A stretch of 64,000 nucleotides of DNA from an uncultured Candidatus Binatia bacterium (GCA_965243855.1 CBDEWE010000003.1:1474610-1538609); one strand, 5' to 3'. Counted from the first letter of the stretch, positions 23,531 through 56,370 are shown. Notes: a model not told the origin generated them from the letters alone. Translations and numbers: made by a program.

Positions 23531-23971
23531 GAAATGTTTTGCAACGTTCCGGGCGAACTCGGCCACGATTTTGTCTGCCTTTTTCCGAATCACGGGCTGG
23601 CCGAACTCGCCCAGTTTGCCCATAAGCCGGGCTTCGGTCTGGATGGACAATTGGGTTTGCGCCTCTTCTTGTTCAACTAAAGTCAGCTCGGCACTGATAT
23701 GGACGCCGCCGCCAACGCGGCGGTCGTTTGCTTCCGCTCTGCCGACCGCACGCCAATTTGTTTGATCGAGTTCCTGTATGCTCAACTCGCCCTGTAAGGT
23801 GAGTCGAATAGGGCCGAATGTCACTTTCATCCGACCCGCGTATTGATCCTCACCGGCGGCGACAACCTCACTTACCCCAGGCACACAGGTCGCCATTTGA
23901 GGAACATCCATAAGAAAGTCCCACAGGGTTTCGCGCGCAACCGGGACGGTACAGCTATGCTCGAAGTTCAT
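23522..23971 (-). CDS. coxG: CoxG-like SRPBCC protein (carbon-monoxide-dehydrogenase subunit G family)
   Basis: 149 aa. It lies directly downstream of coxM in the operon. SRPBCC-like pattern. Confidence 0.65.
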   Translation of the reverse strand: MNFEHSCTVPVARETLWDFLMDVPQMATCVPGVSEVVAAGEDQYAGRMKVTFGPIRLTLQGELSIQELDQTNWRAVGRAEANDRRVGGGVHISAELTLVEQEEAQTQLSIQTEARLMGKLGEFGQPVIRKKADKIVAEFARNVAKHFKE

Positions 23972-24852
23972 TCGTTCCCCCTCCTTTCTTGAGCGCGTGT
24001 GACTGCCTGTTCGATGGCCCGCTGGGTAAAGACGACGGCCATGTCGCGCTTGTATTCTGCTGAGCCGCGAAAGTCCGCGAGAGGATCAATCTCTTCCGTC
24101 ACAAGAGCGGCCGCGTCACGAATAACCCGAGGGGTCAACGACTGGCCTTGGAGGGCCGTTTCAACTGCTCGTGTCCGGAGTGGGGTTGTCGCGGCGGCAC
24201 CCAGGGCGACACGGGCCTGAGCAATAGTGTCGCCGTCTAAGGAGATTCGTGCGGCGACGGCAATAGTTGCGTAATCGTCATGCGTTTGGGGCAGGAATTT
24301 CAGGAAAGAAGTCCCCGCGCCGGTAGGTTGGGGTGGGATGATAACGGTGGTGATGAGTTCTTCGGGTTCGAGAACGGTTTCATAATAATCGACAAAAAAG
24401 TCACTCAGCTCGATTTCCCGCTCGCCGTGGCGCGATTGGATTCGAATCCGCGCGTCCAGGACGAGCAGCGCAGGGGGTGGATCCTGGTTTGGGTCGGCAT
24501 GCGCCAACGAACCGCCAATGGTTGCGGCCGTCCGAATACGAACACTGGCCACATGCTGAAAGGTCGTAGCCAAAAGGGGAAGGCGGTGTTGAATCAGGGC
24601 TGAGGTTTCTATGGTACGGTGCGAACACAACGCCCCGATCGTGAGGTCGCCGTTGGTCCGAATCTCAGCGAGTTCCGGGCGGCGGGCCAGTTGGCGGAGA
24701 CCGATCAGATACGCGGGCTGAACCAGCCGCTGCTTCATCAGGTTGACCAGCCCGGTTCCGCCGGCAAGGACCTTGGCGTCCTCGCCGTGCTGTTCAAGCA
24801 GGGCTAAAGCCTCTTCGAGGCTTTCCGGTTCGACATATTCAAAGGCAATCAT
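23968..24852 (-). CDS. coxM: molybdenum hydroxylase FAD-binding subunit (CoxM-like)
   Basis: Begins MIAFEYVEPESLEEALALLEQHG...AGGTGLVNLMK, the classic FAD_binding_5 N-terminus. The start overlaps the coxS stop (ATGA). Confidence 0.8.
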   Translation of the reverse strand: MIAFEYVEPESLEEALALLEQHGEDAKVLAGGTGLVNLMKQRLVQPAYLIGLRQLARRPELAEIRTNGDLTIGALCSHRTIETSALIQHRLPLLATTFQHVASVRIRTAATIGGSLAHADPNQDPPPALLVLDARIRIQSRHGEREIELSDFFVDYYETVLEPEELITTVIIPPQPTGAGTSFLKFLPQTHDDYATIAVAARISLDGDTIAQARVALGAAATTPLRTRAVETALQGQSLTPRVIRDAAALVTEEIDPLADFRGSAEYKRDMAVVFTQRAIEQAVTRAQERRGNE

Positions 24853-25319
24853 GTGGTGACCTTTCCGTCCGCCACCGCCTGGATCGATGCGATGATTTTG
24901 TAATAGCCGGTACAGCGGCACAGATTGCCCATCATCCAGCTTTGAATCTCGTCTTTTGACGGATGCGGGTTTTCGTCCAACAGGGCTTTGGCCGACATGA
25001 TCTGACCCGGCGTACAGATGCCGCACTGAAAGCCGCCATAGTCGATAAACGCTTTTTGGAGCGGGTGCAGTCTGTCGCCTTCAGCCAGTCCTTCGATGGT
25101 GGTGACTTCGCCGCCGTCTGCCGTGACCGCGAGAGTCAAACAGGAACTGACGGGCTTACCGTCAAGCAGGACGGTACATGCTCCGCACACGCCCACGCTA
25201 CAGCCTTCTTTGGTCCCCGTGAGATCAAGCCCATTGCGTAACAAGTCAATGAGCAGGATGTTATCTGAAATATCCCGCTCAACCGCTTGGCCGTTTACCC
25301 GGAGTTGAATAGATTTCAT
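24849..25319 (-). CDS. coxS: molybdenum hydroxylase [2Fe-2S] subunit (CoxS-like)
   Basis: 156 aa with a plant-type ferredoxin cluster CSVGVCGACTV and a second cluster QCGICTPG...CRCTGY. Confidence 0.9.
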   Translation of the reverse strand: MKSIQLRVNGQAVERDISDNILLIDLLRNGLDLTGTKEGCSVGVCGACTVLLDGKPVSSCLTLAVTADGGEVTTIEGLAEGDRLHPLQKAFIDYGGFQCGICTPGQIMSAKALLDENPHPSKDEIQSWMMGNLCRCTGYYKIIASIQAVADGKVTT

Positions 25320-25334
25320 ATCTGGCTGCCTCCT

Positions 25335-27632
25335 CTACCCATCGCTCTTGACGGTGAGATTCTTTTCTCGGAGGGCCGCATATACTTTTTCTGCGGTCAC
25401 GGGTAAATCCATCAGACGAACCCCTACTGCATCAAAGACGGCGTTTGCCACCGCCGCCGGTACGGCCACATTGCTGTGTTCGCCAATGGCCTTGCCTGCG
25501 TACGGTGCCGGGCCGGCGTCGCTTTCGACCAGAACGGTTTTCAGCTCCGGAATATCCATACTGGTTGGTAGTTTGTAGTCACCCAAATGAACATTCGTCA
25601 CGGCGCCGTCCTGCACTATCAGATGTTCGGTCAGCGCGTGGCCGACCCCTTGGATAGCTCCGCCTTCAACTTGTCCCTGGTGGGTGAGCGGATTGAGAAT
25701 TGTGCCGACATCGTGCGCGGTTATGAGTTTCCTCAGGGTCACCTGGCCGGTTGTTGGATCAACTTCGACTTCGGCTATTTGGGCACAGAACGAGGTCACA
25801 TCCACAGGGTCTTCGGCCACATACTCTCCGGTATAGCGTAAAGGCAGCTCTTCCCGGCCGGCGAGTGCGGCCATCAGCGTGGGAAGGGCAAGGCGCTGTC
25901 CGTTCGTATTCACAAAGTCACCCGCCCGATATGCAACCTGTTCCTGCGGACTTTCCATATGCCGGGCAGCAAAGGCGGTCAGCCCTTCCTTTAATTTGCG
26001 GACAGCGGCAAGGGCTGCCTGACCGGCCATATGCGTCAGGCGGCTTCCTCCAGCGCCTACTTCCCAAGAAGCGGAATCGGTACTGCCCTGCACGACTCTG
26101 ACGGATTCTAAGGGGACCTGTAATTCTTCGGCCACAACTTGCTGCAGAACCGTATACGAGCCGGTACCTGTATCAGCCGCGCCCGTCATGAGGGTCAGCG
26201 TAGCGTCGGCAGTGATGCTTAAGGTGGCACTCGATGGCCCAAACGCACCCGGCTCGCGGTCATACATGCCTATGCCGCGCCCAACATGAGGCGGCTTTTC
26301 GGTGTTCCACCGAGCTTCCTTAGCTGCAGCCTCCAGCGTCTCCTTGCAGCGAATTTTTTTCCATTTTTCACCCAGCGGGGCGGCATCGCCTTCGACTAAC
26401 GTGTTGCGAAGCCGAAACTCCAAGGGATCAAGCCCCAGTTCCTGGGCAACGAGGTCCATATGGCTCTCAACCCCAAAAACGATCTGGGGTGCACCTGGCG
26501 CGCGCATATGCCCGGCAGGAACGGTGTTGGTATAGACCCGGAAGACTTCGATCTCGACATTGGGCATCCGATACGGACCGGCGGCGTGGACACTGCCGTG
26601 CACGGTGTGCAGGGGCGTGAATGCGCTGTAGGCCCCACAGCTAAAAACTAGCTTGGCCTTGCGGGCAACAATCCGGCCGTTGGCATCTACGCCGGTCCGG
26701 AGCGTAATGACCGCCGGATGACGTGGATTACCGGCTAACAGCTCTTCGGTATAGGTCATGACCATTTTTACCGGCCGACCTGCGGCCGCGGCCAGGTGAT
26801 AGCACACAACGCTATCCATTAATGAACCTTTACCGCCAAAATCACCCCCAATGGGCGCGGTGTTGACGCACACCCGGTCCTCGGTCACACCGAGCGCAGC
26901 AGCAAACTGGCCCCGAGCCACAAAGGGGGTCTTATTGGAAATCCACAGATTGACTTTGCCGCCCGGCTCAATCTGGACGACGCTGGCATGCGGCTCAATA
27001 TAGCCCTGATGAACCGGGGGAATGGTAAACGTATGGGTGAACTCGCGGGTGGCGTGGGCAAAGCCGGCTTCAATATCACCGTGAGTGTAGAACACTTGTG
27101 ACACCACGTTGGGAATGTCGGGGTACAGACGGTCGTCACCCGGATGAACAAAATCGGGCACCGGAGGATGGGTGTATGTGCTGGTGTCGGCATGGACGCG
27201 CGGTGCATCTTCCTGCATGGCCTCGGCCGGATCAAAGACCGCGGGCAGGGCTTCATACTCGACCGCTATGCGCGTGAGCGCTTCCTCGGCAATGTCCATG
27301 GACTCGGCCGCAACCGCAACGACCTTCTCGCCCACAAAACGAACCACATCACGCGCGAGGACGGGCTTGTCCAAAAAGAAGCGGCCAATACGGCGGTCCG
27401 GCAGCTCGGCTCCGGTAATGACCGCGTGGACGCCGGCCAGCGCTTTTGCTTGTGAAGTATCAATCGAGACAATTCGCGCGTGGGGAAACGGGCTGCGCAG
27501 GCATTTGCCGTACAGCAAACCGGGCAGCCGAATATCCGCGGTATAGCGGGCCTGTCCGGTTACTTTTGACGGCCCCTCCACATGGCCCGCCGGTTGCCCA
27601 ACGCTGGCTAAGTTCGCCATAGTGACCTCCAC
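25335..27632 (-). CDS. coxL: xanthine dehydrogenase family molybdopterin-binding subunit (CoxL-like, not a form-I CO dehydrogenase)
   Basis: 765 aa with the Mo-hydroxylase motif PIGGDFGGKG. No VAYRCSFR form-I CODH active-site loop is seen. Confidence 0.8.
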   Translation of the reverse strand: MEVTMANLASVGQPAGHVEGPSKVTGQARYTADIRLPGLLYGKCLRSPFPHARIVSIDTSQAKALAGVHAVITGAELPDRRIGRFFLDKPVLARDVVRFVGEKVVAVAAESMDIAEEALTRIAVEYEALPAVFDPAEAMQEDAPRVHADTSTYTHPPVPDFVHPGDDRLYPDIPNVVSQVFYTHGDIEAGFAHATREFTHTFTIPPVHQGYIEPHASVVQIEPGGKVNLWISNKTPFVARGQFAAALGVTEDRVCVNTAPIGGDFGGKGSLMDSVVCYHLAAAAGRPVKMVMTYTEELLAGNPRHPAVITLRTGVDANGRIVARKAKLVFSCGAYSAFTPLHTVHGSVHAAGPYRMPNVEIEVFRVYTNTVPAGHMRAPGAPQIVFGVESHMDLVAQELGLDPLEFRLRNTLVEGDAAPLGEKWKKIRCKETLEAAAKEARWNTEKPPHVGRGIGMYDREPGAFGPSSATLSITADATLTLMTGAADTGTGSYTVLQQVVAEELQVPLESVRVVQGSTDSASWEVGAGGSRLTHMAGQAALAAVRKLKEGLTAFAARHMESPQEQVAYRAGDFVNTNGQRLALPTLMAALAGREELPLRYTGEYVAEDPVDVTSFCAQIAEVEVDPTTGQVTLRKLITAHDVGTILNPLTHQGQVEGGAIQGVGHALTEHLIVQDGAVTNVHLGDYKLPTSMDIPELKTVLVESDAGPAPYAGKAIGEHSNVAVPAAVANAVFDAVGVRLMDLPVTAEKVYAALREKNLTVKSDG

Positions 27633-27699
27633 AGTCAGACGCTACCTAAAGTACGGATATCGTCATGAATCCTTTTCGCAGTCAAGCGCCGTGGGTGTT

Positions 27700-27786
27700 T
27701 GTTGAGTCGGTTGAGTCTTGACCCAAAAGACTCAAAAGACTCAAAAGACTCAATAGACTCAATAGACCCAATAGACCCAAAAGACT
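27700..27786. repeat. family-B tandem-9-mer palindromic element, copy 1
   Basis: GTTGAGTCG GTTGAGTCT TGACCCAAAA then GACTCAAAA x3, GACTCAATA x2, GACCCAATA, GACCCAAAA. The left 9-mers are the reverse complement of the right 9-mers. Lies upstream of coxL. Confidence 0.9.
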
Positions 27787-27815
27787 TCCTTTGCCTATGG
27801 GAGCGAGTGAGTGGG

Positions 27816-28118
27816 ATGCCGAGTTTCGATATTGGGGTTGGACATGGCTCCGCCTATCACCTGGTTGAAGAAAATATCGCGCGCTATGTGGTCAAGGCGT
27901 ATCGCGGCCGGCCCGAGCGCGCGCTGACGGCTGGCAGCATTGTTCGGCATATTCTACAGGAGCTGGGCGTCTCCGGGTTCTCCTTACAACCGGAGCATAT
28001 TGTGAAGTGGGTCTTGGTGTTTGAAGAACGGACGGGCCGAAAGATTCTTGAAGCAGAGCCGGAAACGTTTCCGGCACGTTATAGGTGCGTATACTACAAA
28101 GATATTCGGATTCTCTGA
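27816..28118 (+). CDS. hypothetical small protein
   Basis: 100-aa ORF directly downstream of a family-B repeat copy. No recognisable domain. The longer 27699 ORF reads through the repeat and is probably an artefact. Confidence 0.3.
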   Translation: MPSFDIGVGHGSAYHLVEENIARYVVKAYRGRPERALTAGSIVRHILQELGVSGFSLQPEHIVKWVLVFEERTGRKILEAEPETFPARYRCVYYKDIRIL

Positions 28119-29565: not shown

Positions 29566-29817
29566 ATGGCAACAAAAAAAGATATCGCCCTGGTAAGAGA
29601 ATTACGGCCCAGTAACCCAACGGAAGAACAGGTACCAGCCAAGGAGCCCTCCCTCATAGAAGAATTTCGGCTCACGAGCCTGGCAGCGGAATTTGAGCAG
29701 CATAGCCAAGCAGAAATCGAACGTTTGGGTGGTGAGAATCCTGATTTTGACGAGCAACTCTACCACGAAGCCGTTTCCCTCGTCCTGCGGAAACTCAGCC
29801 GATATCGAAAAGAGTAA
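29566..29817 (+). CDS. hypothetical small acidic protein
   Basis: 83 aa with no recognisable domain. Its 3' end runs into a family-A palindromic repeat. Confidence 0.3.
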   Translation: MATKKDIALVRELRPSNPTEEQVPAKEPSLIEEFRLTSLAAEFEQHSQAEIERLGGENPDFDEQLYHEAVSLVLRKLSRYRKE

Positions 29818-29858
29818 ACGTAGCCTCCAATTGAGATGCTGGATACCTTCACTCTTTT
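29809..29858. repeat. family-A palindromic element, copy 6 (degenerate, inverted)
   Basis: AGAGTAAACGTAGCCTCCAATTGAGATGCTGGATACCTTCACTCTTTT. Immediately upstream of the SMC-like ATPase gene. Confidence 0.75.
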
Positions 29859-29879
29859 AATCAAGTCAAGGAAGCTTTC

Positions 29880-32144
29880 ATGATCATCACGAGTGTCCAC
29901 GCGAAAAATGTGCTGCGTTATGCGGAATTGAAGCTGACGAATCTCCCCCGGCAGGGAGTGATTGGCATAAGCGGTGCCAATGAATCCGGCAAAACGACCA
30001 TTGCCGAGATTCTGTGTCTGGCATTGTTTGGCCGGACGTTCTCTCACGCTGAGAGCGATTTCCAAAAAAACATCAAGTGGGGCGAGTTTGGCGCTTCAAT
30101 CTCTGTTGGCTTTCTTGCCAAGGATAAACACAGCTATTTGGTGACTCGCTCTTTTGATGCGGACGGGAATCACTTGGCTCAGCTTCGCAGGGACAGGGAA
30201 GACGAGCCCTTTGTCCGTGGAGCCGCTGCGGTGAACGAGAATGTGGCCCAACTATGTGGTTTTACCTATCAACGTTTTATTGATTCCTTTTATTTAGCCC
30301 AGCGCAATATCGCATCTCCGTCCATTCTCCTCCAGACCGCCAAGGCGTTGGCAGGGGTTGAAACCTTTGAGCAGGTAGCGACTGAATGTGAGTCCGATAT
30401 CCACGCCCTCCAGGAAGAACTCGCCCCTCTGCACAGCGGTCTTGCCGAGGCTCGCCGGCAGCGCAGTGAACTCAATATCCAGGCTGATGCGTTGCCCAAT
30501 TTGAAGACCGAACAGAACGCACAAACCACCGCCATGGCTGAGCGAAAAAAAGAGAATACGGTCCGTCAGCTGACGCTCGACCGTCTGCGCGCTGCAACCA
30601 CAGAGATGGCTGAGCAAGTGAAAAAGACGATGCAGGCCACTCTCGATGTCAGCTTGAAGCAGTGGCTCCATTATGCGGAGAATATCGATACGGTCACACA
30701 AAACGTCGACGCGGCGAGCGAAGGGGCAGAATCCGGTTCGGGTCAACGGCTGACTGGGGCGCTCCAGTCTTGGCGTGACGATTTGCGCAAGCGCCTTGAA
30801 GCTTTTACCCCGGTGCGTAACGCGACAGCCACGTATCGCCAACGTTTGGCCTGGCTCATTGGCCAGGGAGAGCGGCCGGCCGAGGTCGACACTCATGCGC
30901 GCTCTTTACCCGACCAGAGAGCATTTCTCCTCAGTCAGGGGGAAGAAATACGCGGGAAGCGGACCGGCCCTATTATCGGCTTTTTTGGCGCGTTTCTGTT
31001 GATGATTATGAGTTGGAGCGCACTCTGGTTTCTGAACTATATGCCAGACCACGCCATTGGACAGTGGCTCAGCAACGGCTTGCAACTACAGGTGACGCAT
31101 ACCACTGTGCTTCTCCTGGTCGCCGCAGTCTCCAGCGGACTGAGCCTGGTGTTGCTTGTTATGGTTTTCCTTCTGACGGAGCGGATTCTGACTGCGCGGC
31201 AGAGGGCCGCCCGCCTCCAGTCCGACCAAGAAGAAACCAAAGTCCAACTCCAAAGTTTAGATGACCTTCCTCAGCAGTCCCTGGCAACGGAGGTGGCGAA
31301 GCTTGATGCCTATGCTGATCCGCAATTGAAAGAGGCTCTGACCCAGTTTGTCAGTGGTCCCGGTGTGTCGCTGCTTGATGCAGAATCGCTCGCAGCGTTT
31401 CTTGCTCCGCTGGAGGCCGCGAGCCTCACCTGCCAGGAGGACGCTGACGCTATCACCAGACGGATAACTGGAGAAATCCGGTCTGTTGAGACGAATTTGG
31501 TTGCCATACAACAAGACCTGGAGCGTCTGGATCAGGCCATTACGGAAGAAGATCGTCGCCTCAATAAAGCGGCGCAACTGGACCAGGAGATCGCTGCGTT
31601 CGAAAAGGATATTGATGGTAAAACTCACAGTATTGAAGTACGGCGAATCGCACAAAATCTCCTCACTGGCTCACACCGTCGTTTACTGAGCCGGTTTAAC
31701 CTGGAGATGCGGCACGTTGTGAGTAAAATCATGCCGCAACTCACTGAGGGGCGCTACGAGACCATGCAGATCGATAACGACCTCAACGTCCGGGTATGGT
31801 CTAGTGAAAAGGGTCATTTTGTTGATCTGAACGAAATTTCGGGAGGCACCTATAATCAGGTCATGCTGGCGATCCGTCTCGCCTTGTCGCAAGCCCTGAT
31901 TACCTCGTCGCTGTGTGGCGTTGAGTGCCTAATTCTCGATGAGCCGTTCGCCTTTTTTGACGCCCAGCGTACCCAAAAGACTCTGGAAATTTTGCCTCAG
32001 GTTAGTCCTGAAATCGAACAGATGTGGATTATTGCTCAGCGGTTTGATGACAACAGCCCTTTCGCCATGCACCTGAGTTGCTCACGGGACTCGGAGGTTT
32101 TGATCGCCCCAGTGGGTGAATATGAGGCGTTGGAGGAGGGATAA
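29880..32144 (+). CDS. membrane-anchored SMC/Rad50/SbcC-family ATPase (YhaN/SbcE-like)
   Basis: N-terminal Walker A GISGANESGKTT. C-terminal ABC signature ISGGTYNQ and Walker B CLILDEP. Long coiled-coil arms are interrupted by two hydrophobic TM helices (aa ~365-385 and ~405-430). Confidence 0.7.
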   Translation: MIITSVHAKNVLRYAELKLTNLPRQGVIGISGANESGKTTIAEILCLALFGRTFSHAESDFQKNIKWGEFGASISVGFLAKDKHSYLVTRSFDADGNHLAQLRRDREDEPFVRGAAAVNENVAQLCGFTYQRFIDSFYLAQRNIASPSILLQTAKALAGVETFEQVATECESDIHALQEELAPLHSGLAEARRQRSELNIQADALPNLKTEQNAQTTAMAERKKENTVRQLTLDRLRAATTEMAEQVKKTMQATLDVSLKQWLHYAENIDTVTQNVDAASEGAESGSGQRLTGALQSWRDDLRKRLEAFTPVRNATATYRQRLAWLIGQGERPAEVDTHARSLPDQRAFLLSQGEEIRGKRTGPIIGFFGAFLLMIMSWSALWFLNYMPDHAIGQWLSNGLQLQVTHTTVLLLVAAVSSGLSLVLLVMVFLLTERILTARQRAARLQSDQEETKVQLQSLDDLPQQSLATEVAKLDAYADPQLKEALTQFVSGPGVSLLDAESLAAFLAPLEAASLTCQEDADAITRRITGEIRSVETNLVAIQQDLERLDQAITEEDRRLNKAAQLDQEIAAFEKDIDGKTHSIEVRRIAQNLLTGSHRRLLSRFNLEMRHVVSKIMPQLTEGRYETMQIDNDLNVRVWSSEKGHFVDLNEISGGTYNQVMLAIRLALSQALITSSLCGVECLILDEPFAFFDAQRTQKTLEILPQVSPEIEQMWIIAQRFDDNSPFAMHLSCSRDSEVLIAPVGEYEALEEG

Positions 32145-32150
32145 GGGTCC

Positions 32151-32225
32151 TTTGAGTCGATTGAGTCCATTGAGTCCATGAGGCTCAACAGACCCAACAG
32201 ACCCAACAAACTCAATAGGCCCATA
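32151..32225. repeat. family-B element, copy 2
   Basis: TTGAGTCGA TTGAGTCCA TTGAGTCCA TGAGGCTCAACA GACCCAACA GACCCAACA AACTCAATA GGCCCAT. Lies between the SMC-like ATPase and acyl-CoA dehydrogenase genes. Confidence 0.9.
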
Positions 32226-32239
32226 ACCAAGGAGATCGT

Positions 32240-33391
32240 ATGGATTTCGCTCTCACTAAAGAACAAGAAGCGTTTCGCGCGGAAATCCGGGAGTTCTTGT
32301 CGAGCGAGGTGCCGGCTGGGGCACGAGTTGAAGACGGCTGGATTAGCGGCTATTCGCGCGAATTTTCTCAGAAACTTGGCCAGCAAGGCTGGATCGGATT
32401 GACTTGGCCCAAGCAATACGGCGGGCAAGAAAAGTCGTATCTTGACCGCTTGATCCTGACCGAAGAACTGCTGCGTGCCGGAGCCCCGGTTGCGGCGCAC
32501 TGGCTGGGGGATCGTCAGGTTGGTCCGGCGCTTCTGGCGTATGGAAGTGAAGAGCAAAAACAAGAAATCCTCCCGCAAGTCTGTAAAGGTGAGATCGTCT
32601 TTTGTCTGGGTATGAGTGAGCCCGGGTCCGGCTCAGACCTGGCTTCGCTCCAGACCAGGGCGGAAGAGGAGGGAGATTACTATACCCTGAACGGCCAAAA
32701 AATCTGGACCAGCTTTGCCCATGTTGCAGATTATGCCTATCTGGTCGCTCGTACGGACCCGGATGCTCCGAAGCACAGGGGGATCAGTGAGTTCCTGGTT
32801 GCGATGGATACTCCGGGTGTCGATGTGCGACCCCTTATCGATGCCACGGGGGAGCATCACTTTAACGAGGTCTTTTTTGATAATGCTGAGGTACCGAAAA
32901 ACCGGCTGATTGGTGAGAAAAATCGAGGCTGGTACCAGATTGCCTCCCAGCTTGACTATGAGCGCAGCGGTATTGAGCGGCTGCTGAGTAATTATCCCCT
33001 GTTTCAGGATGCCGTTCGGTACGCAAAGGAACAGGGGCTGACGAAAGATCCGCTTGTCCGGGACACACTGTCTCAGCTTCAGATCGAGCTCGATTTGGGC
33101 CGTTCCATGGTTTACAAGGTGGCTTGGTATCTGACTCAGAAGATGGTGCCGAACTACGAGGCCGCCATGGCAAAGTGTTTTTGTACCGAAGTGGAACAGC
33201 GTATTGCCAAAGCGGTGAGTGAACTGCTGGGTGATTATGCGGTCCTCCTGCCAGGCTCGCCTCATGCTCGCTTAGCCGGCCGTGCAGCTCGAGAATATCT
33301 GTACGCTCCGGCCTATACGATCCAGGGCGGAACGAGCAATATTCTGCGCAATATCGTCGCGATCCGCGGCCTTGGTTTGCAGCCAGGGTAG
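32240..33391 (+). CDS. acyl-CoA dehydrogenase
   Basis: 383 aa ACAD (GMSEPGSGSDLASL; IWTSFAHVADY; catalytic C-terminal YTIQGGTSNILRN). Confidence 0.85.
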   Translation: MDFALTKEQEAFRAEIREFLSSEVPAGARVEDGWISGYSREFSQKLGQQGWIGLTWPKQYGGQEKSYLDRLILTEELLRAGAPVAAHWLGDRQVGPALLAYGSEEQKQEILPQVCKGEIVFCLGMSEPGSGSDLASLQTRAEEEGDYYTLNGQKIWTSFAHVADYAYLVARTDPDAPKHRGISEFLVAMDTPGVDVRPLIDATGEHHFNEVFFDNAEVPKNRLIGEKNRGWYQIASQLDYERSGIERLLSNYPLFQDAVRYAKEQGLTKDPLVRDTLSQLQIELDLGRSMVYKVAWYLTQKMVPNYEAAMAKCFCTEVEQRIAKAVSELLGDYAVLLPGSPHARLAGRAAREYLYAPAYTIQGGTSNILRNIVAIRGLGLQPG

Positions 33392-33392
33392 A

Positions 33393-33443
33393 ATGAGTAA
33401 ACGTATCCAGCATCTGCATGTTTATTGGAGGACACGTTTACTT
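33393..33443. repeat. family-A palindromic element, copy 7
   Basis: GAGTAAACGTATCCAGCATCTGCATGTTTATTGGAGGACACGTTTACT. Lies between the acyl-CoA dehydrogenase and SDR genes. Confidence 0.9.
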
Positions 33444-33526
33444 ATCGGGACAGCATAAGAGTGAGCGGTTGCTCTTATGCTGCTCGGTCTTTGAGGGGCC
33501 AGTCGGCCCTGACTGAAGGAGGGCCC

Positions 33527-34279
33527 ATGCTTTTGGAAAATAAAGTTGCGCTTATTACCGGATCCGTCCGAGGGACCGGAGCTGGCATCGCTCGTGTTTT
33601 CGCCGGCGAAGGAGCGAAGGTTGTCATTAACCAAGTCAAAGAAGAAGGTAATCCTCAACAGGTGCTTGAAGAAATCGAATCAGCTGGCGGGCAAGCCCTA
33701 TTTGTCAAGGCAGACATTACGGATGAAGCTCAAGTTACTGATATAATTTGCCAAACCGAAGAACGGTTTGGTCAGATTGATATCCTCGTTAACAATTATG
33801 CTGGCAGTATTCCACAGAAACTGTTTCAGGACACAACCTGGGCGGACTGGCAGTATCAGCTCGATACGACGGTCAAAGCCGCCTTTTTGTGTGCGCAGGC
33901 GGTTTTGCCTGGAATGAAAACGCGACAGTGGGGACGGATCATCAGCATCAACACGATTGGCATTCATCAACCAAGACCGCACTATCATGCTTATATCGCA
34001 GCAAAAACAGCTATGTTGGGTTTCTCTCGGAATTTAGCGGTTGAATGTGGTCAGTATAGTATCACCGTCAATATTGTCTCTCCCGGCTTGACCTTAACTC
34101 AGGAAGTCAAAGACATGTTGACGGAGGAAACCCAGGCAAGGCATGAGAGCAAAGTGCCGTTGCGCAGAACAGGGACGGTTGAGGATACGGCAAACGCAGC
34201 GCTGTTTTTTGCGTCTGAGTTGAGCAGCTTCGTTACCGGCCACTACATGCCGGTGTGTGGTGGGCAGGTGTTAGAGTAG
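33527..34279 (+). CDS. SDR family oxidoreductase
   Basis: Begins MLLENKVALITGSVRGTGAGIA (TGxxxGxG). Catalytic YxxxK (YIAAK) present. Confidence 0.85.
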   Translation: MLLENKVALITGSVRGTGAGIARVFAGEGAKVVINQVKEEGNPQQVLEEIESAGGQALFVKADITDEAQVTDIICQTEERFGQIDILVNNYAGSIPQKLFQDTTWADWQYQLDTTVKAAFLCAQAVLPGMKTRQWGRIISINTIGIHQPRPHYHAYIAAKTAMLGFSRNLAVECGQYSITVNIVSPGLTLTQEVKDMLTEETQARHESKVPLRRTGTVEDTANAALFFASELSSFVTGHYMPVCGGQVLE

Positions 34280-36488: not shown

Positions 36489-39400
36489 ATGTTAGCACGT
36501 TTGGCACAGAAAATTTTTGGGAGCAAAAACGAACGCGAGCTCAAGCGCATGCGCCCGTTAGTGGCAGAGATCGGGCAGCTTGAACCTGAACTGCAACCGC
36601 TCAGCATGGATGAGCTGCGAGCGAAAACGGATATATTCCGCAGCCGAATCCAAGATGCCACTGCAGCGACACGTGTACAGTTGGATGAGATTGCACAGCA
36701 GGCGGCCGAGATTGCTCCAGAAGGTGTCCCTGACGCAGATGAGCTGGAGAAGTTGGACTACTTCCAAGAGGAACGAACCAGCCTGGAAAAAGAACTTCGC
36801 GCGGCGGAAGCTGATGTGCTTGACGATATTCTGCCCGAAGCCTATGCGACCGTCCGCGAAGTCTCGCGTCGGGTCACCAGCATGCGCCATTTTGATAGCC
36901 AACTCCTTGGCGGCATTGTCCTCCATCAGGGCCGTATTGCCGAGATGAAAACGGGCGAGGGAAAGACGCTGGTTGCAACCCTGCCGCTCTATCTCAACGC
37001 CCTACTCGGTCGTGGCTCACATCTGGTAACGGTCAACGACTATCTGGCCCGCCGTGATGTGCAGTGGATGGGGCCTATTTATCATGCCCTTGGGCTATCC
37101 GTTGCTTCTATCGTACACGACGCGAGTTTTATCTTTGACCCGACTCATGTGGTCAAAGATTATCGGTATATGAATCTTCGTCCGGTCAGCCGCAAAGAGG
37201 CATATGCGGCCGATATCACCTATGGAACGAATAACGAATACGGCTTCGACTACTTACGCGATAATATGAAGTTCAACCTTGAAGATTATGTTCAGCGTGA
37301 ATTGCATTTTGCCATTGTTGATGAAGTGGATAACATCCTGATTGACGAAGCTCGGACGCCACTGATTATTTCCGGTCCGGCAGAAGAATCCACACAGAAG
37401 TATTACTCGCTCAATCGGGTCATTCCGCGTCTCCAGCGTGAGGTCGATTACGCTATTGACGAAAAACTCAGAACCGCAACGCTCACCGAAGAGGGGGTCG
37501 CGAAAGTTGAGCGTATTCTCGGCGTGCGCAACCTGTACGACCCGTCTGAGATCGGGACCTTGCACCATGTCAACCAGGCGCTGAAAGCGCATGCCATTTT
37601 TAAGCGCGACGTTGATTATGTGATTAAGGATGGCGAAGTCGTCATCGTTGATGAATTTACCGGTCGTCTCATGCCCGGCCGACGCTGGTCGGATGGGCTG
37701 CATCAAGCCGTCGAAGCCAAGGAGGGCGTCCGGATTCGTGAGGAAAATCAAACTCTTGCGAGCATAACGATTCAGAATTACTTCCGCATGTACGATAAAT
37801 TGGGAGGCATGACTGGGACGGCGGATACGGAGGCGGTTGAATTCAAGAAGATCTACGATCTTGATGTGGTGGTGATTCCACCCAATCGTCCCATGGTCCG
37901 GATGGATCATCCTGACATGGTGTACAAGACCGAGCGCGAGAAATTCGAGGCAGTGATTGCCGATATCCTCGACTGCCACGAGCGGGGACAACCCGTATTG
38001 GTCGGTACAATTTCAGTCGAGAAGTCCGAATATCTCAGCAGACTCCTCAAGAGAAAAAAGGTCAAGCACAATGTCCTCAATGCGGTTAACCACGAAGCTG
38101 AGGCGAACATTATTGCCCAGGCGGGTCGTTTTGGTGCGGTGACTATTGCCACGAATATGGCTGGTCGGGGGACTGATATTTTGCTTGGTGGAAACCCGGA
38201 ATTCCTGGCCCGCTCCGATATTGAAAAAAAATGGGTCAATAAGGCCAGTGCCGCCCGGACCAAGAAAGGCGCAAAGACAGCGGCCACAACAGAAAAGAGT
38301 TACGAAGACCAACTAGAAGAAATCCGCGCAGAGTATAATGCTGCGACCGCCCAGGCCCAGGAAAAATATGAGCCTCAATGGACTCCTTTCGAGGAGGCCC
38401 GTAATGCGGCATTGAAACGGATGACGGAGACCTATCGCCCCTATCTCCACGCTACGCTGCAGAAAGCTCGGGTCGACTATGGGGAGGCTGCGCGTGTGTT
38501 CGTTGGGCCGGTTGAGTCCGTTGAGTCATCGAGTCGGTTGAGTCTTGACCCCAAAGACCCTAAAGACTCAACAGACCCAAAAGACCTCCCTATGGAGACG
38601 TATAGCCAAGCACGGGAAGCGTATGAGTCGGCATTGTCAGAATATGACAAGGTGGTCGGTCCAGCGCTGAATGAAGAGCAACAACAAGACTATGAGACTG
38701 CGCGTACCGATTTTATTGCGGTATTGACTGAAGATGGGATGGAGGAGGGAGAGGCGTCTGAACGCCTTAACCTCAACCGAAACCGCTACGAAGATTGGCT
38801 AGAAGATTACTGTCAGTCCATTATTCAGATGGCTGGCTTAGCTCTGAGTGAAAACGACCGGGTACAAGAGGTATATGAAGCCGCCCGCCAGGCGTATGAA
38901 GAAAACCAACAAGCCTACCAGGATGCTGATCAACGCTATGAGGAGGCGCGTAAGCCGTATGAAGCCGCTGTCGCTGAGGCAGAGCGTGTGTACGAGCAAC
39001 AGCGCAAGGATCATGTCCAGGTCATAGAAGAGGTCAGGGAACAGCTTGAGAAAGCACCTGACGCGTATAGCCAGGATTTCAACGAAATTCTTGAGAAGTA
39101 CGAGAAAACGTGCGGCGAGGAGCGAGAAAAGGTTGTTGCTGCCGGTGGTGTACACATTTTGGGCACTGAGCGTCACGAGTCTCGAAGAATTGATAACCAA
39201 CTCCGCGGGCGCGCGGGACGCCAGGGAGACCCTGGTTCATCCAGATTTTTCCTCTCCCTGGAAGATGACCTCCTGCGTATTTTTGGCGCAGAGCGCGTAC
39301 AGAAAATAATGGACCGGCTGGGCATGGAAGAGGGGGAACCCATAGAAGCCGGACTCGTCACCCGGGCTATCGAAAATGCCCAGGGGCGAGTCGAGGGCCA

Positions 39401-40226
39401 TAACTTCGATATCCGAAAACATCTGCTGGAATATGATGATGTGATTAACAAACAGCGTGAAGTCATCTATGAGCAGCGCCGGGGATTCCTGGCCGGTGAA
39501 AATTTGAAAGGTCAGGTACTGGAAATTGTTGAAGAGATGGCTGAAGAAAGTGTGCTGAACTATGCGGATAAAGGAATCGACCCGGCGGAGTGGGACTGGA
39601 AAGGGCTTGATGACACGGTGTTTCGCCAATTCAATATGCGTCTTGGCTTGAGTGAGGAACAGCAAGAAGAGCTGATAACGGAAGATCTCCAGGACCTTGT
39701 GCGAGACCGGGCGCTCCAACACTATGAAGAACGAGAACAGGCTTTTACACCACCTGTTATGCGGTATCTCGAAAAGGTGATCATGCTACAAACCATGGAC
39801 AGTCTGTGGAAAGACCACCTGTTTGCCATGGACCACCTTAAAGAGGGGATTGGTCTGCGCGGCTACGGTCAGAAAAACCCCCTGCAAGAGTACAAGAAAG
39901 AGGCATTCAGTCTGTTCGACGACCTCTCCCGTCGGATGCAGGAAGATATTGTTGAAAAGCTCTATAGCGTCCAGGTGGCCCGCCAGGAAGATGTCCAGCG
40001 GATGGAGGAAGGGCAGGCTGCACAACGGCCTATGCAGATGATGCACGGCGGACAGGCAACGCTCCAACAACCACAGTCGGCAACACGACCTATGCAGGGG
40101 GGACCGAATGGACAGCCACAGACGGAACGACCTGTCCAAGCCGTACGGGATACGCCCAAGGTTGGTCGGAACGCACCCTGTCCGTGTGGTAGCGGCAAGA
40201 AATACAAGAAGTGTCACGGCGCATGA
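36489..40226 (+). CDS. secA: preprotein translocase ATPase SecA, with a ~300-aa insertion in NBD2 and a C-terminal zinc finger
   Basis: [21 protein letters not shown] start. DEAD-motor motifs ([13 protein letters not shown]; DEVD; [10 protein letters not shown]; [27 protein letters not shown]). C-terminal [14 protein letters not shown]. 1245 aa versus about 900 aa for typical SecA. Confidence 0.95.
38511..38586. repeat. family-B element, copy 3, inside the secA coding sequence and in frame
   Basis: GTTGAGTCC GTTGAGTCA TCGAGTCG GTTGAGTCT TGACCCCAAAGACCCTAAAGACTCAACAGACCCAAAAGAC, translated as [25 protein letters not shown] within SecA. Confidence 0.9.
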
Positions 40227-46017: not shown

Positions 46018-46085
46018 CGCGGTAGGCCGGTCGTCGGAGGACGCTCTTGATCCACGCAAGCCGTGTCAGCTACCCTGTATGTGTT

Positions 46086-46178
46086 CGTTGAGTCCGTTGA
46101 GTCTTTAGGGTCTTTGGGGTCAAGACTCAACAGACCCAATGACTCAACAGACCCAATGACTCAACAGACCCGAAAGAC
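46086..46178. repeat. family-B element, copy 4
   Basis: GTTGAGTCC GTTGAGTCT TTAGGGTCTTTGGGGTCAAGACTCAACAGACCCAAT GACTCAACAGACCCAAT GACTCAACAGACCCGAAAGAC. Lies between gatC and yraN. Confidence 0.9.
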
Positions 46179-46184
46179 ATCGTT

Positions 46185-46565
46185 ATGGTGAGAGGCGACC
46201 GGCGACGCCTGTTCGGCCAACACGGCGAGCAACGCGCCGCACAGTTTTTACAGAGCCTCGGCTATAGGATAGTGAACCGAAATTATCGATGCCCTCGCGG
46301 AGAAATTGATCTCGTTGCGCAGGATAAAGGAACCATTGTCTTCGTGGAGGTTCGGACGCACCGCTCTCAGGAGTTCGGAAACCCTCTCGCCTCAGTAAAC
46401 AAGCGGAAGCAACGCCAAATCGCCATGACTGCCCTCCATTATCTTTCACGTTTTCACCTCCATGACCACGCTGCACGATTTGACGTCATTGGAATTATAG
46501 GGGAAGGAGAGGCTGCGCAGCTGACCCATATCAAAGAGGCTTTTGAATTCCCAATCTCACGATAA
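46185..46565 (+). CDS. yraN: YraN family (UPF0102) endonuclease-like protein
   Basis: About 126 aa with a PD-(D/E)xK-like core (GEIDLVAQDKGTIVFVEVRTHR). Confidence 0.8.
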   Translation: MVRGDRRRLFGQHGEQRAAQFLQSLGYRIVNRNYRCPRGEIDLVAQDKGTIVFVEVRTHRSQEFGNPLASVNKRKQRQIAMTALHYLSRFHLHDHAARFDVIGIIGEGEAAQLTHIKEAFEFPISR

Positions 46566-56330: not shown

Positions 56331-56370
56331 AAAGCGCAAACGTGTCCAGCATATTATGTCTAGGCGGTCA
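56331..56370. repeat. family-A element, truncated half-copy 10
   Basis: CAAAGCGCAAACGTGTCCAGCATATTATGTCTAGGCGG. Left arm plus loop only, between the BFN nuclease and coxE. Confidence 0.6.

What the first reader, a model, noticed from the sequence alone, without database searches (positions are those of the whole stretch)
29566..32225. Orphan membrane-anchored SMC/Rad50-like ATPase flanked by both repeat families
The 754-aa protein has SbcC/Rad50-type head motifs (Walker A GANESGKT, signature SGG, Walker B ILDEP) at its two ends. Two transmembrane helices interrupt its coiled-coil arms, the architecture of B. subtilis YhaN/SbcE. No SbcD/Mre11-like nuclease partner lies nearby. Its neighbours are an amidohydrolase and an acyl-CoA dehydrogenase. 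A family-A repeat sits just upstream and a family-B repeat just downstream, so the gene, with an 83-aa ORF upstream, looks like a discrete inserted cassette. Stand-alone SMC-like ATPases are common components of antiphage systems (Lamassu, Septu, Wadjet-like). A membrane-tethered version without a partner could be a repair or defence factor.
Basis: partly seen in the sequence, partly recalled or inferred. Interest (0 to 1): 0.65.

Follow-up and report, generated by a model that had tools for sequence, protein, structure and literature searches.

The report
Membrane-anchored Rad50-like ATPase with small partner
This is a conserved chromosomal gene pair of Binatia bacteria: a Rad50/SMC-type ATPase whose coiled-coil tip is buried in the membrane, plus a tiny helical partner protein; the family is uncharacterised but widespread and inherited with its core-genome neighbours, and it is not an inserted defence cassette.

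Summary
The sequence description holds. ORF 29880..32144 (+) encodes a 754-aa Rad50-clade ABC ATPase with intact Walker A, Q-loop, signature, Walker B and D-loop motifs. Two central hydrophobic helices keep their position across the whole family. No nuclease gene lies nearby.

- The gene is not an orphan. The 83-aa upstream ORF belongs to a family found directly upstream in 72 of 76 loci from several phyla. In 42 of these its stop overlaps the ATPase start by 4 nt.
- It is not a repeat-bounded cassette. Both repeat families are dispersed hairpin elements that come and go in the spacers of a constant gene order. The family-A copy lies between the two genes, not outside them.
- In Binatia found through the ATPase, the pair keeps its place before ACAD-SDR down to about 40% ATPase identity, and its divergence tracks its neighbours.
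- It is absent from plasmid and phage collections. Outside Binatia its neighbours are housekeeping genes.
- The PADLOC LmuB hit is non-specific.

The most likely mechanism (inferred) is an ATP-gated dimer anchored in the inner membrane that clamps or tethers DNA there without a nuclease. This is a new variant of a known kind, of moderate interest.

The parts
29566..29817 (+). Small partner gene (83 aa; conserved core about aa 28-82). It is acidic, with a disordered N-terminus followed by a helical hairpin.
   Evidence: ORF. A GGGAGG Shine-Dalgarno sequence lies 7 nt upstream. An HMM of the family finds it directly upstream on the same strand in 72 of 76 loci, with a 4-nt stop/start overlap in 42. 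149 stand-alone homologues of 58-116 aa carry no Pfam domain. AF2 gives helices 28-57 and 63-82 with pLDDT above 90 in the core. There is no PDB or Pfam relative. Mean net charge of the family is -3.5.
29809..29857 (.). Family-A palindromic repeat (~49 nt) inserted exactly at the stop codon of the small gene. It supplies the new stop (..AAA GAG TAA) and widens the spacer to 62 nt.
   Evidence: Repeat families D3/D4/D6 and inverted pairs I10, I14, I16, I18, I19 and I21. The element is present at this spacer only in the window, L001, L003, L010 and L018. Relatives without it (e.g. L007, L017) read CGA|TAATCAAGTCAAGG with a 19-nt spacer. It folds as a weak hairpin, z = -1.5.
29880..32144 (+). 754-aa Rad50-clade ABC ATPase with a transmembrane hairpin at the apex of its coiled-coil arms.
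   Evidence: Rad50 head homology; AF2 mean pLDDT 83.6; the best Foldseek PDB matches are Rad50, then Smc5/6 and MukB; family of 564 50%-identity clusters at E <= 1e-30.
29973..29996 (+). Walker A, GANESGKT (aa 32-39). N34, E35, G37 and K38 are invariant in the family.
30291..30308 (+). Q-loop, YLAQRN (Q141 invariant). It aligns to the Rad50 Q-loop IYIKQGE.
30969..31034 (+). Transmembrane helix 1 (aa 364-385).
   Evidence: Hydropathy peak 1.92, conserved in position in the family. It lies within AF2 helix 343-387. The preceding segment is positively charged.
31035..31100 (+). Short loop between the TM helices (aa 386-407), predicted to lie outside the cytoplasm. P389 is nearly invariant.
   Evidence: P389 conserved in 90% or more of sequences; short helix 392-400; net charge -1.6.
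31101..31202 (+). Transmembrane helix 2 (aa 408 to about 441).
   Evidence: Hydropathy peak 2.65. It lies within AF2 helix 405-461.
31836..31859 (+). ABC signature motif ISGGTYNQ (S654, G656 and Q660 invariant).
31932..31961 (+). Walker B ILDEP and D-loop FAFFD (D687, E688 and D694 invariant).
32037..32039 (+). Gln720 at the position of the Rad50 H-loop histidine (family consensus ..WvisQ..; Rad50 has ..IITHH / ..LVSHD).
   Evidence: Residue-level alignment to M. jannaschii and P. furiosus Rad50. Q720 is conserved in 90% or more of sequences.
32144..32223 (.). Family-B repeat, (TTGAGTCNN)n followed by its inverse (GACCCAACA)n, filling the ATPase/ACAD spacer.
   Evidence: It forms a stable hairpin, z = -4.4. 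Copy number varies among relatives, and the array is absent in L001, L014-L016, L018 and L022.

Best explanation
What it is (shown). A two-gene chromosomal module.
- Gene 1 encodes a 60-85-aa acidic protein whose conserved core is a helical hairpin.
- Gene 2 encodes a Rad50-clade ABC ATPase. Its two head halves (aa 1-158 and 623-743) are joined by long helical arms. At the apex of the arms a two-helix transmembrane hairpin takes the place of the zinc hook of Rad50 or the hinge of SMC.
- The heads and the base of the C-terminal arm are strongly conserved. The membrane segment is conserved only in position and hydrophobicity, as expected of an anchor.
- In most relatives the two genes are translationally coupled.

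How it most likely works (inferred from what is established for Rad50, SbcC, RecN and SMC).
- Two ATPase chains sit in the inner membrane with both heads in the cytoplasm, roughly 20 nm from the membrane.
- ATP binding sandwiches the heads (Walker A against the signature motif).
- This closes a compartment bounded by heads, arms and membrane, which clamps or tethers DNA at the cell envelope.
- Gln in place of the H-loop histidine suggests slow hydrolysis and hence a long-lived engaged state.
- The small partner is proposed to bind the conserved coiled-coil base or head. The Rad50-binding helix-loop-helix of Mre11 and the N-terminal helices of a kleisin bind there, and the partner would tune head engagement in the same way.
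- No nuclease is part of the unit, so the action would be tethering or sensing, as in RecN, and not end resection.

The two flanking repeats are unrelated dispersed hairpin elements that landed in the spacers.
For: Head homology and intact catalytic motifs:
-. The family profile hits MjRad50 at 2e-38 and E. coli SbcC at 7e-11. No LmuB or RecN chain reaches E <= 1e-3, and one SMC chain is a weak hit at 1.7e-06.

Fold:
- AF2 mean pLDDT is 83.6, with head beta-sheets plus a 122-residue C-arm helix.
- Foldseek ranks Rad50 first.

TM hairpin and topology:
-.

Conservation profile:
- Heads score 2.5-3.6 bits, the C-arm base (aa 586-622) 2.7-3.2, and the arms and TM region 1.5-2.1.

Partner linkage:
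- 72 of 76 loci, with 47 overlapping the ATPase start.
- The same holds for the short-form relatives.

No conserved third gene or nuclease:
-.

Vertical, chromosomal inheritance:
- Synteny holds in the 80-92%, 60% and 40% identity tiers of Binatia.
- Identity rank tracks the neighbours.
- The family is absent from 72,556 plasmids and 50,697 phages.

Precedent:
- SbcE/YhaN is an SMC-like protein with a hydrophobic, insoluble central domain that acts in double-strand-break repair and competence at the cell pole (PMC2811018).
Against: - No experiment and no DNA-binding evidence exists for this family.
- The heads are net acidic (C-lobe mean -8.6).
- The T. maritima Rad50 lysines that I recall as DNA contacts (from memory, not checked) align to acidic or neutral residues (my reading of the alignment).
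- Dimerisation, the ring geometry and the partner's binding site could not be modelled, because only monomer AF2 was available.
- The small hairpin has no detectable relative, so its comparison with the Mre11 Rad50-binding domain or a kleisin is by analogy only.
- Synteny was judged on loci found through the ATPase itself. About ten contigs found through ACAD at ~80% identity lack the module at that position, so loss or relocation does occur.
- The family is patchy across bacteria: 474 hits among 185,579 species genomes.
Confidence: 0.45

Rival explanations
1. Membrane mechanics without DNA. Nucleotide-dependent head dimerisation of membrane-anchored coiled coils tethers, shapes or scaffolds membranes or an envelope machine. 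This is analogous in logic to atlastin, mitofusin or bacterial dynamin-like proteins, or to the mechanotransmission of FtsEX and MacB.
For: - The protein is anchored by a hairpin with both ends in the cytoplasm.
- The heads and the partner are acidic.
- No DNA-metabolism gene is consistently adjacent.
- Many hosts are lineages with elaborate internal membranes, such as Chromatiales, Magnetococcales and Phycisphaerae. This is a loose association and was not tested statistically.
Against: - Every characterised member of the Rad50/SMC/RecN/RecF clade works on nucleic acid (established knowledge), and the head is unambiguously of that clade.
- The TM region is poorly conserved in sequence. This argues for a passive anchor and against a specific membrane-active site.
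Confidence: 0.2
2. An antiphage or antiplasmid system of the SMC-like kind (Lamassu-, Wadjet- or Septu-like). The ATPase senses foreign DNA, and the membrane hairpin acts as a built-in abortive-infection effector.
For: - PADLOC LmuB model PDLC03859 hits at 2.5e-18, and mad3, PbeC and DndD models hit more weakly.
- Foldseek finds LmuB structures among the matches.
- The distribution across phyla is patchy, and the module is absent at this position in some related contigs.
- A patatin-like phospholipase lies downstream in two loci.
Against: - The same LmuB model scores unrelated SMC/SbcC-like proteins far higher, at 1e-31, so the hit is generic.
- No LmuA or LmuC, nuclease or other effector gene is present in any of 75 loci.
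- Neighbours are housekeeping genes: LysA, DapF, ValS, HemB, RsmE, HrpB, RNase II, HtpG and Adk.
- The pair is stably syntenic and diverges in step with its neighbours in Binatia.
- There is no copy on plasmids or phages.
- The TM sequence is not conserved as an effector would be.
Confidence: 0.12
3. A Gram-negative counterpart of SbcE/YhaN that works as the ATPase of a Rad50-Mre11-type nuclease complex, with the SbcD/YhaO-like nuclease encoded elsewhere in the genome.
For: - It has the same overall architecture as SbcE: a Rad50-like head, long arms, and a hydrophobic central domain with a conserved proline (P389).
- The head is closest to Rad50/SbcC.
Against: - The Pfam YhaN-type model AAA_27 scores 10.9 bits against a cut-off of 22.
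- No nuclease gene is adjacent in any of 75 loci, whereas sbcCD, yhaON and rad50-mre11 are operon partners (PMC2811018).
- The invariably linked gene is instead a 65-aa hairpin protein.
Confidence: 0.1
4. One reading: the two ORFs form a recently inserted cassette delimited by the family-A and family-B repeats.
For: Repeats do sit next to the ATPase gene.
Against: - The family-A copy lies between the two genes of the module.
- Relatives lacking either repeat still have both genes in the same place.
- About 14 such elements occur in 64 kb, one of them inside the secA reading frame.
- GC content is not deviant: 0.535-0.554 over 29-32 kb against 0.47-0.59 across the window.
Confidence: 0.02

Closest known systems
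Rad50 / SbcC (ATPase of the Mre11-Rad50 / SbcCD complex)
   Same: - It is the best sequence and fold match: MjRad50 at 2e-38 and SbcC at 7e-11, and Foldseek ranks 1, 2 and 5.
- It has a split ABC head with Walker A, Q-loop, signature, Walker B and D-loop.
- Antiparallel helical arms emerge from the head.
   Different: - There is no CxxC zinc hook. The apex is a two-helix membrane hairpin instead.
- The arms are much shorter than in E. coli SbcC (754 aa against 1048 aa).
- The H-loop His is replaced by Gln.
- There is no Mre11/SbcD gene. The linked partner is a 65-aa helical hairpin.
- Scores fall far below the NCBIfam Rad50 and SbcC cut-offs (62 bits against 700-1087).
B. subtilis SbcE (YhaN) with SbcF (YhaO)
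   Same: - It is an SMC/SbcC-like ATPase whose coiled coils are separated by a hydrophobic, insoluble central domain containing a conserved proline (PMC2811018).
- This is the only characterised precedent found for a hydrophobic apex in this clade.
   Different: - The YhaN-type Pfam model AAA_27 is not matched (10.9 bits against a cut-off of 22).
- SbcE is about 960 aa long (from memory) and has ~300-aa heptad-repeat arms.
- yhaN lies next to the SbcD-like nuclease gene yhaO. Here there is no nuclease, and a different small partner is linked instead.
- The hosts are Gram-negative lineages.
LmuB of Lamassu (with LmuA effector and LmuC)
   Same: - It is a Rad50-like head with short arms, of comparable size (~600-750 aa).
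- It hits PADLOC model PDLC03859 at 2.5e-18.
- LmuACB structures appear in Foldseek at ranks 23-38.
   Different: - No LmuA or LmuC genes are present.
- The PADLOC model is promiscuous.
- The profile search of PDB does not recover LmuB.
- The LmuB structures recovered by Foldseek are soluble complexes, whereas this protein has a TM hairpin.
- The genomic context is housekeeping and syntenic.
RecN
   Same: It is an SMC-like ATPase that acts without a dedicated nuclease partner, tethering DNA in double-strand-break repair. This is the closest functional analogy for a nuclease-free Rad50-like protein.
   Different: RecN is soluble and has no small operon partner (both from established knowledge). 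No RecN chain appears in the profile search.

Membership tests
Rad50/SbcC clade of ABC ATPases (superfamily level) | Split ABC head with Walker A, Q-loop, signature motif, Walker B and D-loop, aligned to Rad50 heads | tested here: met
   (residue-level alignment to MjRad50 and PfRad50); invariant residues; Pfam AAA_23 above its cut-off.
Rad50/SbcC clade of ABC ATPases (superfamily level) | Long antiparallel helical arms inserted between the two head halves | tested here: met
   AF2 secondary structure is almost entirely helical over aa 160-622, including a 122-residue helix at 501-622. The actual pairing of the arms was not inspected, because no coordinates were available.
Rad50/SbcC proper (orthologue) | CxxC zinc hook at the apex of the arms | tested here: not met
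   There is no CxxC between aa 160 and 622 (sequence). The apex is the hydrophobic hairpin.
Rad50/SbcC proper (orthologue) | Adjacent Mre11/SbcD metallophosphoesterase gene | tested here: not met
   None is conserved in 75 related loci, and no motif-bearing ORF exists in the 64-kb window.
Rad50/SbcC proper (orthologue) | Score above the curated family cut-offs (NCBIfam Rad50 equivalogs, TIGR00618 sbcc) | tested here: not met
   62 bits against cut-offs of 700-1087, and 44.5 bits against 478.5.
SbcE/YhaN | Hydrophobic central domain between the coiled coils | tested here: met
   compared with the description in PMC2811018.
SbcE/YhaN | YhaN-type N-terminal domain (Pfam AAA_27, PF13514) | tested here: not met
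   10.9 bits, E = 0.34, cut-off 22.
SbcE/YhaN | Operon partner YhaO/SbcF nuclease | tested here: not met
Lamassu (LmuB) | Co-located LmuA effector and LmuC | tested here: not met
   Neighbour clustering of 76 loci shows only the 65-aa gene as a constant neighbour. The small ORF has no PADLOC hit.
Lamassu (LmuB) | Specific match to LmuB profiles | tested here: inconclusive
   PDLC03859 hits at 2.5e-18, but the same model gives 1e-31 for unrelated SMC/SbcC-like proteins P0100 and P0101.
SMC proper / MukB / JetC | Hinge dimerisation domain and kleisin plus KITE/HAWK partners | tested here: not met
   There is no SMC_hinge hit, and SMC_N is below its cut-off (21.5 against 40 bits). No kleisin-sized partner is present. 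Whether the 65-aa protein binds like the N-terminus of a kleisin is not testable with these tools.
Defence island / mobile cassette | Variable genomic context, association with mobile elements, presence/absence among close relatives | tested here: not met
   The module is present and syntenic in all 17 close genome relatives and in metagenome contigs with ACAD at 89-97% identity. It is absent from plasmids and phages. Caveat: it is absent at this position in about ten contigs with ACAD at ~80% identity.

The most novel reading that the evidence does not exclude
The pair defines a distinct class of SMC/Rad50-like machine, a 'membrane SMC'. Its ring is closed on one side by ATP-engaged heads and on the other by the lipid bilayer, and it is regulated by a dedicated 65-aa hairpin subunit unrelated to Mre11, kleisins or LmuC. 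It would physically couple DNA (chromosome, incoming or damaged DNA) to the inner membrane in several Gram-negative phyla. Alternatively, it would be the first member of this ATPase clade to have left DNA biology for membrane tethering.
Probability: 0.25. Interest if true: 0.7.

Novelty: new variant of a known kind. Interest (0 to 1): 0.45.

Why it matters
SMC/Rad50-type ATPases are the universal motors and clamps of chromosome biology and, more recently, of bacterial immunity. In every well-studied case the arms end in a hinge or a zinc hook. A family whose arms end in the membrane, and which always travels with its own tiny subunit, has not been characterised. It has about 560 clusters at 50% identity across Binatia, Gammaproteobacteria, Phycisphaerae, Magnetococcales and Desulfobulbaceae. 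Studying it would give a way to ask how, or whether, bacteria mechanically couple DNA to the envelope. It might also explain the poorly understood hydrophobic domain of B. subtilis SbcE. For annotation, it shows that 'SbcC exonuclease' and 'LmuB' labels on such genes are unsafe.

Tried and rejected
- Cassette hypothesis. I compared the two spacers in 22 relatives. The repeats vary and the genes do not, so I rejected it.
- Lamassu or defence assignment. The PADLOC hit was controlled with unrelated SMC-like proteins and found to be non-specific. Plasmid and phage searches were empty.
- YhaN orthology. AAA_27 scores below its cut-off.
- A third conserved gene. I clustered 1031 ORFs from 76 loci. 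Nothing beyond the small ORF is conserved outside Binatia.
- Identity of the small protein. Pfam, NCBIfam and PADLOC, a PDB profile search and Foldseek gave nothing significant. No fused architectures turned up among 149 homologues.
- Rfam on 27-34 kb gave no match. Promoter and terminator scans were not above shuffled expectation.
- Foldseek against afdb50 was unavailable.
- Literature searches for a described membrane-anchored Rad50/SMC-like family found only the SbcE paper. The 2020 ABC-ATPase classification by Krishnan et al. is not held in the library and may mention the family.
- A head surface-charge or DNA-contact check was inconclusive, because no model coordinates were available.
Full report
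**Observation**

The window region 29566-32225 contains an 83-aa ORF (29566..29817, +) and a 754-aa ORF (29880..32144, +), as described. Both have Shine-Dalgarno-like sequences upstream.

The large protein carries these motifs:
- Walker A GANESGKT (aa 32-39)
- Q-loop YLAQRN (Q141)
- Signature ISGG (653-656)
- Walker B ILDEP (685-689)
- D-loop FAFFD

Family assignment rests on several searches.
- Pfam places it in AAA_23 (45 bits, cut-off 27). It also gives sub-threshold SMC_N and SbcC_Walker_B hits.
- NCBIfam gives only far-sub-threshold Rad50 and SbcC matches.
- A profile of 40 homologues hits M. jannaschii Rad50 at 2e-38, T. maritima Rad50 and E. coli SbcC at about 1e-11, and one SMC chain weakly. 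It hits no LmuB or RecN chain.
- In the residue-level alignment every catalytic motif lines up with Rad50, except that the H-loop histidine is a nearly invariant glutamine, Q720.

**Architecture**

AlphaFold2 with that alignment gives a confident model, with mean pLDDT 83.6.
- Beta-rich head halves lie at aa 1-158 and 623-743.
- Everything between them is helical, including a 122-residue helix at 501-622.
- Foldseek against the PDB ranks Rad50 first, then Smc5/6, MukB and, lower down, LmuB.

Two hydrophobic stretches (aa 364-385 and 408 to about 441) have Kyte-Doolittle 19-residue peaks of 1.9 and 2.65.
- They recur at the same alignment position in nearly all homologues down to 28% identity.
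- They also recur in a shorter (600-650 aa) branch of the family.
- The segment before TM1 is positively charged (mean +2.4) and the ~20-residue loop between the helices is slightly negative (-1.6). This fits a topology with both heads in the cytoplasm.

Column conservation across the family is uneven.
- It is high in the heads (2.5-3.6 bits) and in the base of the C-terminal arm (aa 586-622; 2.7-3.2 bits).
- It is low in the arms and the membrane segment (1.5-2.1 bits).
- So the membrane hairpin is conserved as a hydrophobic anchor and not as a sequence-specific site.

**The gene is not an orphan**

A genome scan with the family alignment returned 75 loci. These come from Candidatus Binatia, which identifies the source of the window, and from Gammaproteobacteria (many Chromatiales), Phycisphaerae, Magnetococcales and Desulfobulbaceae.

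An HMM of the 83-aa protein finds a homologue directly upstream on the same strand in 72 of 76 loci.
- One of the four misses has no upstream sequence. The other three are the most divergent ATPases.
- In 42 loci the stop overlaps the ATPase start by 4 nt, and in five more it overlaps otherwise.
- The short-form ATPases have the same 65-aa overlapping gene.

The small protein family has these properties.
- It comprises 149 stand-alone homologues of 58-116 aa.
- It has no Pfam, NCBIfam, PADLOC or PDB relative.
- It is acidic, with mean net charge -3.5.
- AF2 predicts a disordered N-terminus followed by a helical hairpin (helices 28-57 and 63-82, pLDDT above 90).

No other gene is consistently linked. 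Outside Binatia the neighbours are LysA, DapF, DUF484, ValS, HemB, RsmE, HrpB, RNase II, HtpG, Adk and the like. No nuclease is adjacent anywhere. The window has no metallophosphoesterase-motif ORF and no paralogue of the ATPase.

**It is not a cassette**

The window holds two dispersed repeat families.
- Family A is a ~50-nt palindrome (AAAGAGTAAACGTGTCC...GGACACGTTTACTCTTT) with about ten copies.
- Family B consists of arrays of 9-bp units followed by their inverse, with four copies.

The family-A copy (29809-29857) lies between the small gene and the ATPase. It is inserted exactly at the small gene's stop codon.
- Relatives such as L007 and L017 read CGA|TAA-TCAAGTCAAGG with a 19-nt spacer.
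- The window, L001, L003, L010 and L018 carry the element and a 62-67-nt spacer.

The family-B array in the ATPase/ACAD spacer varies in copy number and is missing in six relatives. The genes on both sides never change. GC content is unremarkable.

**Inheritance**

In every Binatia genome locus found through the ATPase, the pair sits upstream of the same acyl-CoA dehydrogenase and, in nearly all of them, the same SDR.
- This holds in the 80-92%, ~60% and ~40% ATPase-identity tiers.
- In the closer tiers the order Amidohydro_2 / pair / ACAD / SDR / LLM oxidoreductase / MurI / SecA is kept.
- ATPase identity follows the rank order of the neighbours' identity but falls faster, as expected for a coiled-coil protein.

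An independent scan of metagenome contigs with the ACAD protein gave a mixed result.
- The ATPase lies upstream in the two close contigs (ACAD 97% and 89%).
- It is absent in about ten contigs whose ACAD-SDR pair is ~80% identical.
- In those contigs a DsbH-like thioredoxin, a DUF1499 protein and a glutaredoxin or methyltransferase lie upstream instead.

So the module is ancestral and stable in a large part of Binatia but is not universal at this position. Loss or relocation occurs at deeper divergence.

The family has no member on 72,556 plasmids or 50,697 phage records. These collections are biased towards cultured hosts. In a 1.84-billion-protein library, 564 cluster representatives match at E <= 1e-30.

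**Defence reading**

PADLOC's LmuB model PDLC03859 matches at 2.5e-18. The same model scores two unrelated SMC/SbcC-like proteins at about 1e-31, so the hit only says 'Rad50-like'. There is no LmuA, LmuC, HNH, TOPRIM or other effector gene in any locus. Together with the housekeeping contexts and the stable synteny, this makes a defence system unlikely, at about 0.12.

**Mechanism**

Shown: a Rad50-clade head with all ATP-binding and dimerisation motifs, helical arms, a membrane hairpin at the apex with the heads in the cytoplasm, and a small hairpin protein encoded directly upstream in nearly every locus examined.

Inferred, from the established behaviour of Rad50, SbcC, RecN and SMC:
- Two chains dimerise through ATP-sandwiched heads, and probably through their TM hairpins.
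- This forms a compartment between heads and membrane that clamps or tethers DNA at the envelope.
- Gln at the H-loop suggests slow hydrolysis.
- The partner probably docks on the conserved arm base or head, the site used by the Rad50-binding domain of Mre11 or by kleisin N-termini.
- Without a nuclease, the action would be tethering or sensing, as in RecN.

The only characterised analogue of a hydrophobic apex found here is B. subtilis SbcE/YhaN. It has an insoluble hydrophobic central domain with a conserved proline, acts in double-strand-break repair and competence, and forms polar foci (PMC2811018). This family is not a YhaN orthologue, because AAA_27 scores 10.9 bits against a cut-off of 22, and it lacks the YhaO nuclease.

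Weaknesses:
- There is no evidence of DNA binding.
- The heads are acidic.
- No multimer model was possible.
- An alternative in which the machine acts on membranes and not on DNA cannot be excluded (about 0.2).

**Novelty and verdict**

No description of this family was found in the held literature. The 2020 ABC-ATPase classification could not be consulted. Source databases label its members 'AAA family ATPase' or 'exonuclease SbcC'.

I rate it a new variant of a known kind. It is a Rad50/SMC-like ATPase with a membrane apex and a new dedicated small subunit. Its 'orphan, repeat-bounded, possibly defensive cassette' interpretation is largely replaced by 'conserved, vertically inherited two-gene module of unknown but probably DNA-at-membrane function'. 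Interest is 0.45.

Noticed in passing
window 38495-38598 (inside secA, ORF 36489..40226 +): A family-B 9-bp repeat array sits in frame inside the SecA coding sequence and encodes ..[25 protein letters not shown]... Homologous insertions of variable length occur in SecA of L001, L002, L007, L008, L009 and L018, with a partial one in L004. They are absent in L003, L006, L010, L014-L017, L022 and the more distant Binatia. A repeat with a 9-nt period that can expand inside an essential gene without breaking the frame is unusual.
   Followed up: partly
window 5449, 6366, 8694, 13207, 23476, 29809, 33392, 45964, 50676 (and partial at 56331): Family A is a ~50-55-nt palindromic element (AAAGAGTAAACGTGTCC - loop - GGACACGTTTACTCTTT), with about ten copies in 64 kb. 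It resembles a REP or MITE element. The copy at 29809 was inserted precisely at a stop codon and supplies a new in-frame stop. L002 keeps only the left arm, so it may be a deletion derivative. Rfam has no match in 27-34 kb.
   Followed up: partly
window 27702-27786, 32144-32223, 46071-46191: Further family-B elements: (TTGAGTCNN)n followed by the inverse (NNGACTCAA/GACCCAANA)n, forming long hairpins (z = -4.4 for the 32144 copy). The copy at 27702-27786 extends ORF 27699..28118 to 139 aa. Many relatives have 109 aa (range 103-153), so the annotated N-terminus there is probably repeat-derived.
   Followed up: no
window 29566-34279 and L011-L013, L020-L026, L065, L066: In Binatia the small gene, the ATPase, the acyl-CoA dehydrogenase and the SDR lie on one strand. 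Spacers are as short as 14-27 nt in the repeat-free relatives, which suggests co-transcription of a DNA/membrane ATPase with lipid-type redox enzymes. This linkage is not seen outside Binatia.
   Followed up: partly
L081-L092 (metagenome contigs): About ten contigs carry an ACAD-SDR pair ~80% identical to the window's but have DsbH-like, DUF1499 and glutaredoxin or methyltransferase genes upstream instead of the module. Whether these lineages lost the pair or keep it elsewhere is unknown.
   Followed up: partly
P0060-P0097 and P0258-P0342 (short-form relatives); loci L076, L077: A sister branch of 600-650-aa proteins lacks about 110 residues of the N-terminal arm (profile positions ~245-350). 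It keeps the full C-terminal arm, both TM helices and the overlapping 65-aa gene. The two arms therefore differ in length, so part of the long form's N-arm must be an extra helical insert.
   Followed up: partly
L028 7898-10426 and L050 (downstream of the ATPase): An 842-aa patatin-like phospholipase lies directly downstream of the ATPase in two related gammaproteobacterial loci. This is the only neighbour with a possible effector flavour, and it is not conserved elsewhere.
   Followed up: no
window 23968-27632 (- strand): Three adjacent or overlapping ORFs look like a molybdenum hydroxylase or CO-dehydrogenase-type enzyme: a 2Fe-2S small subunit, an FAD-binding medium subunit and a 765-aa large subunit. 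This is judged from the translations only and was not searched.
   Followed up: no
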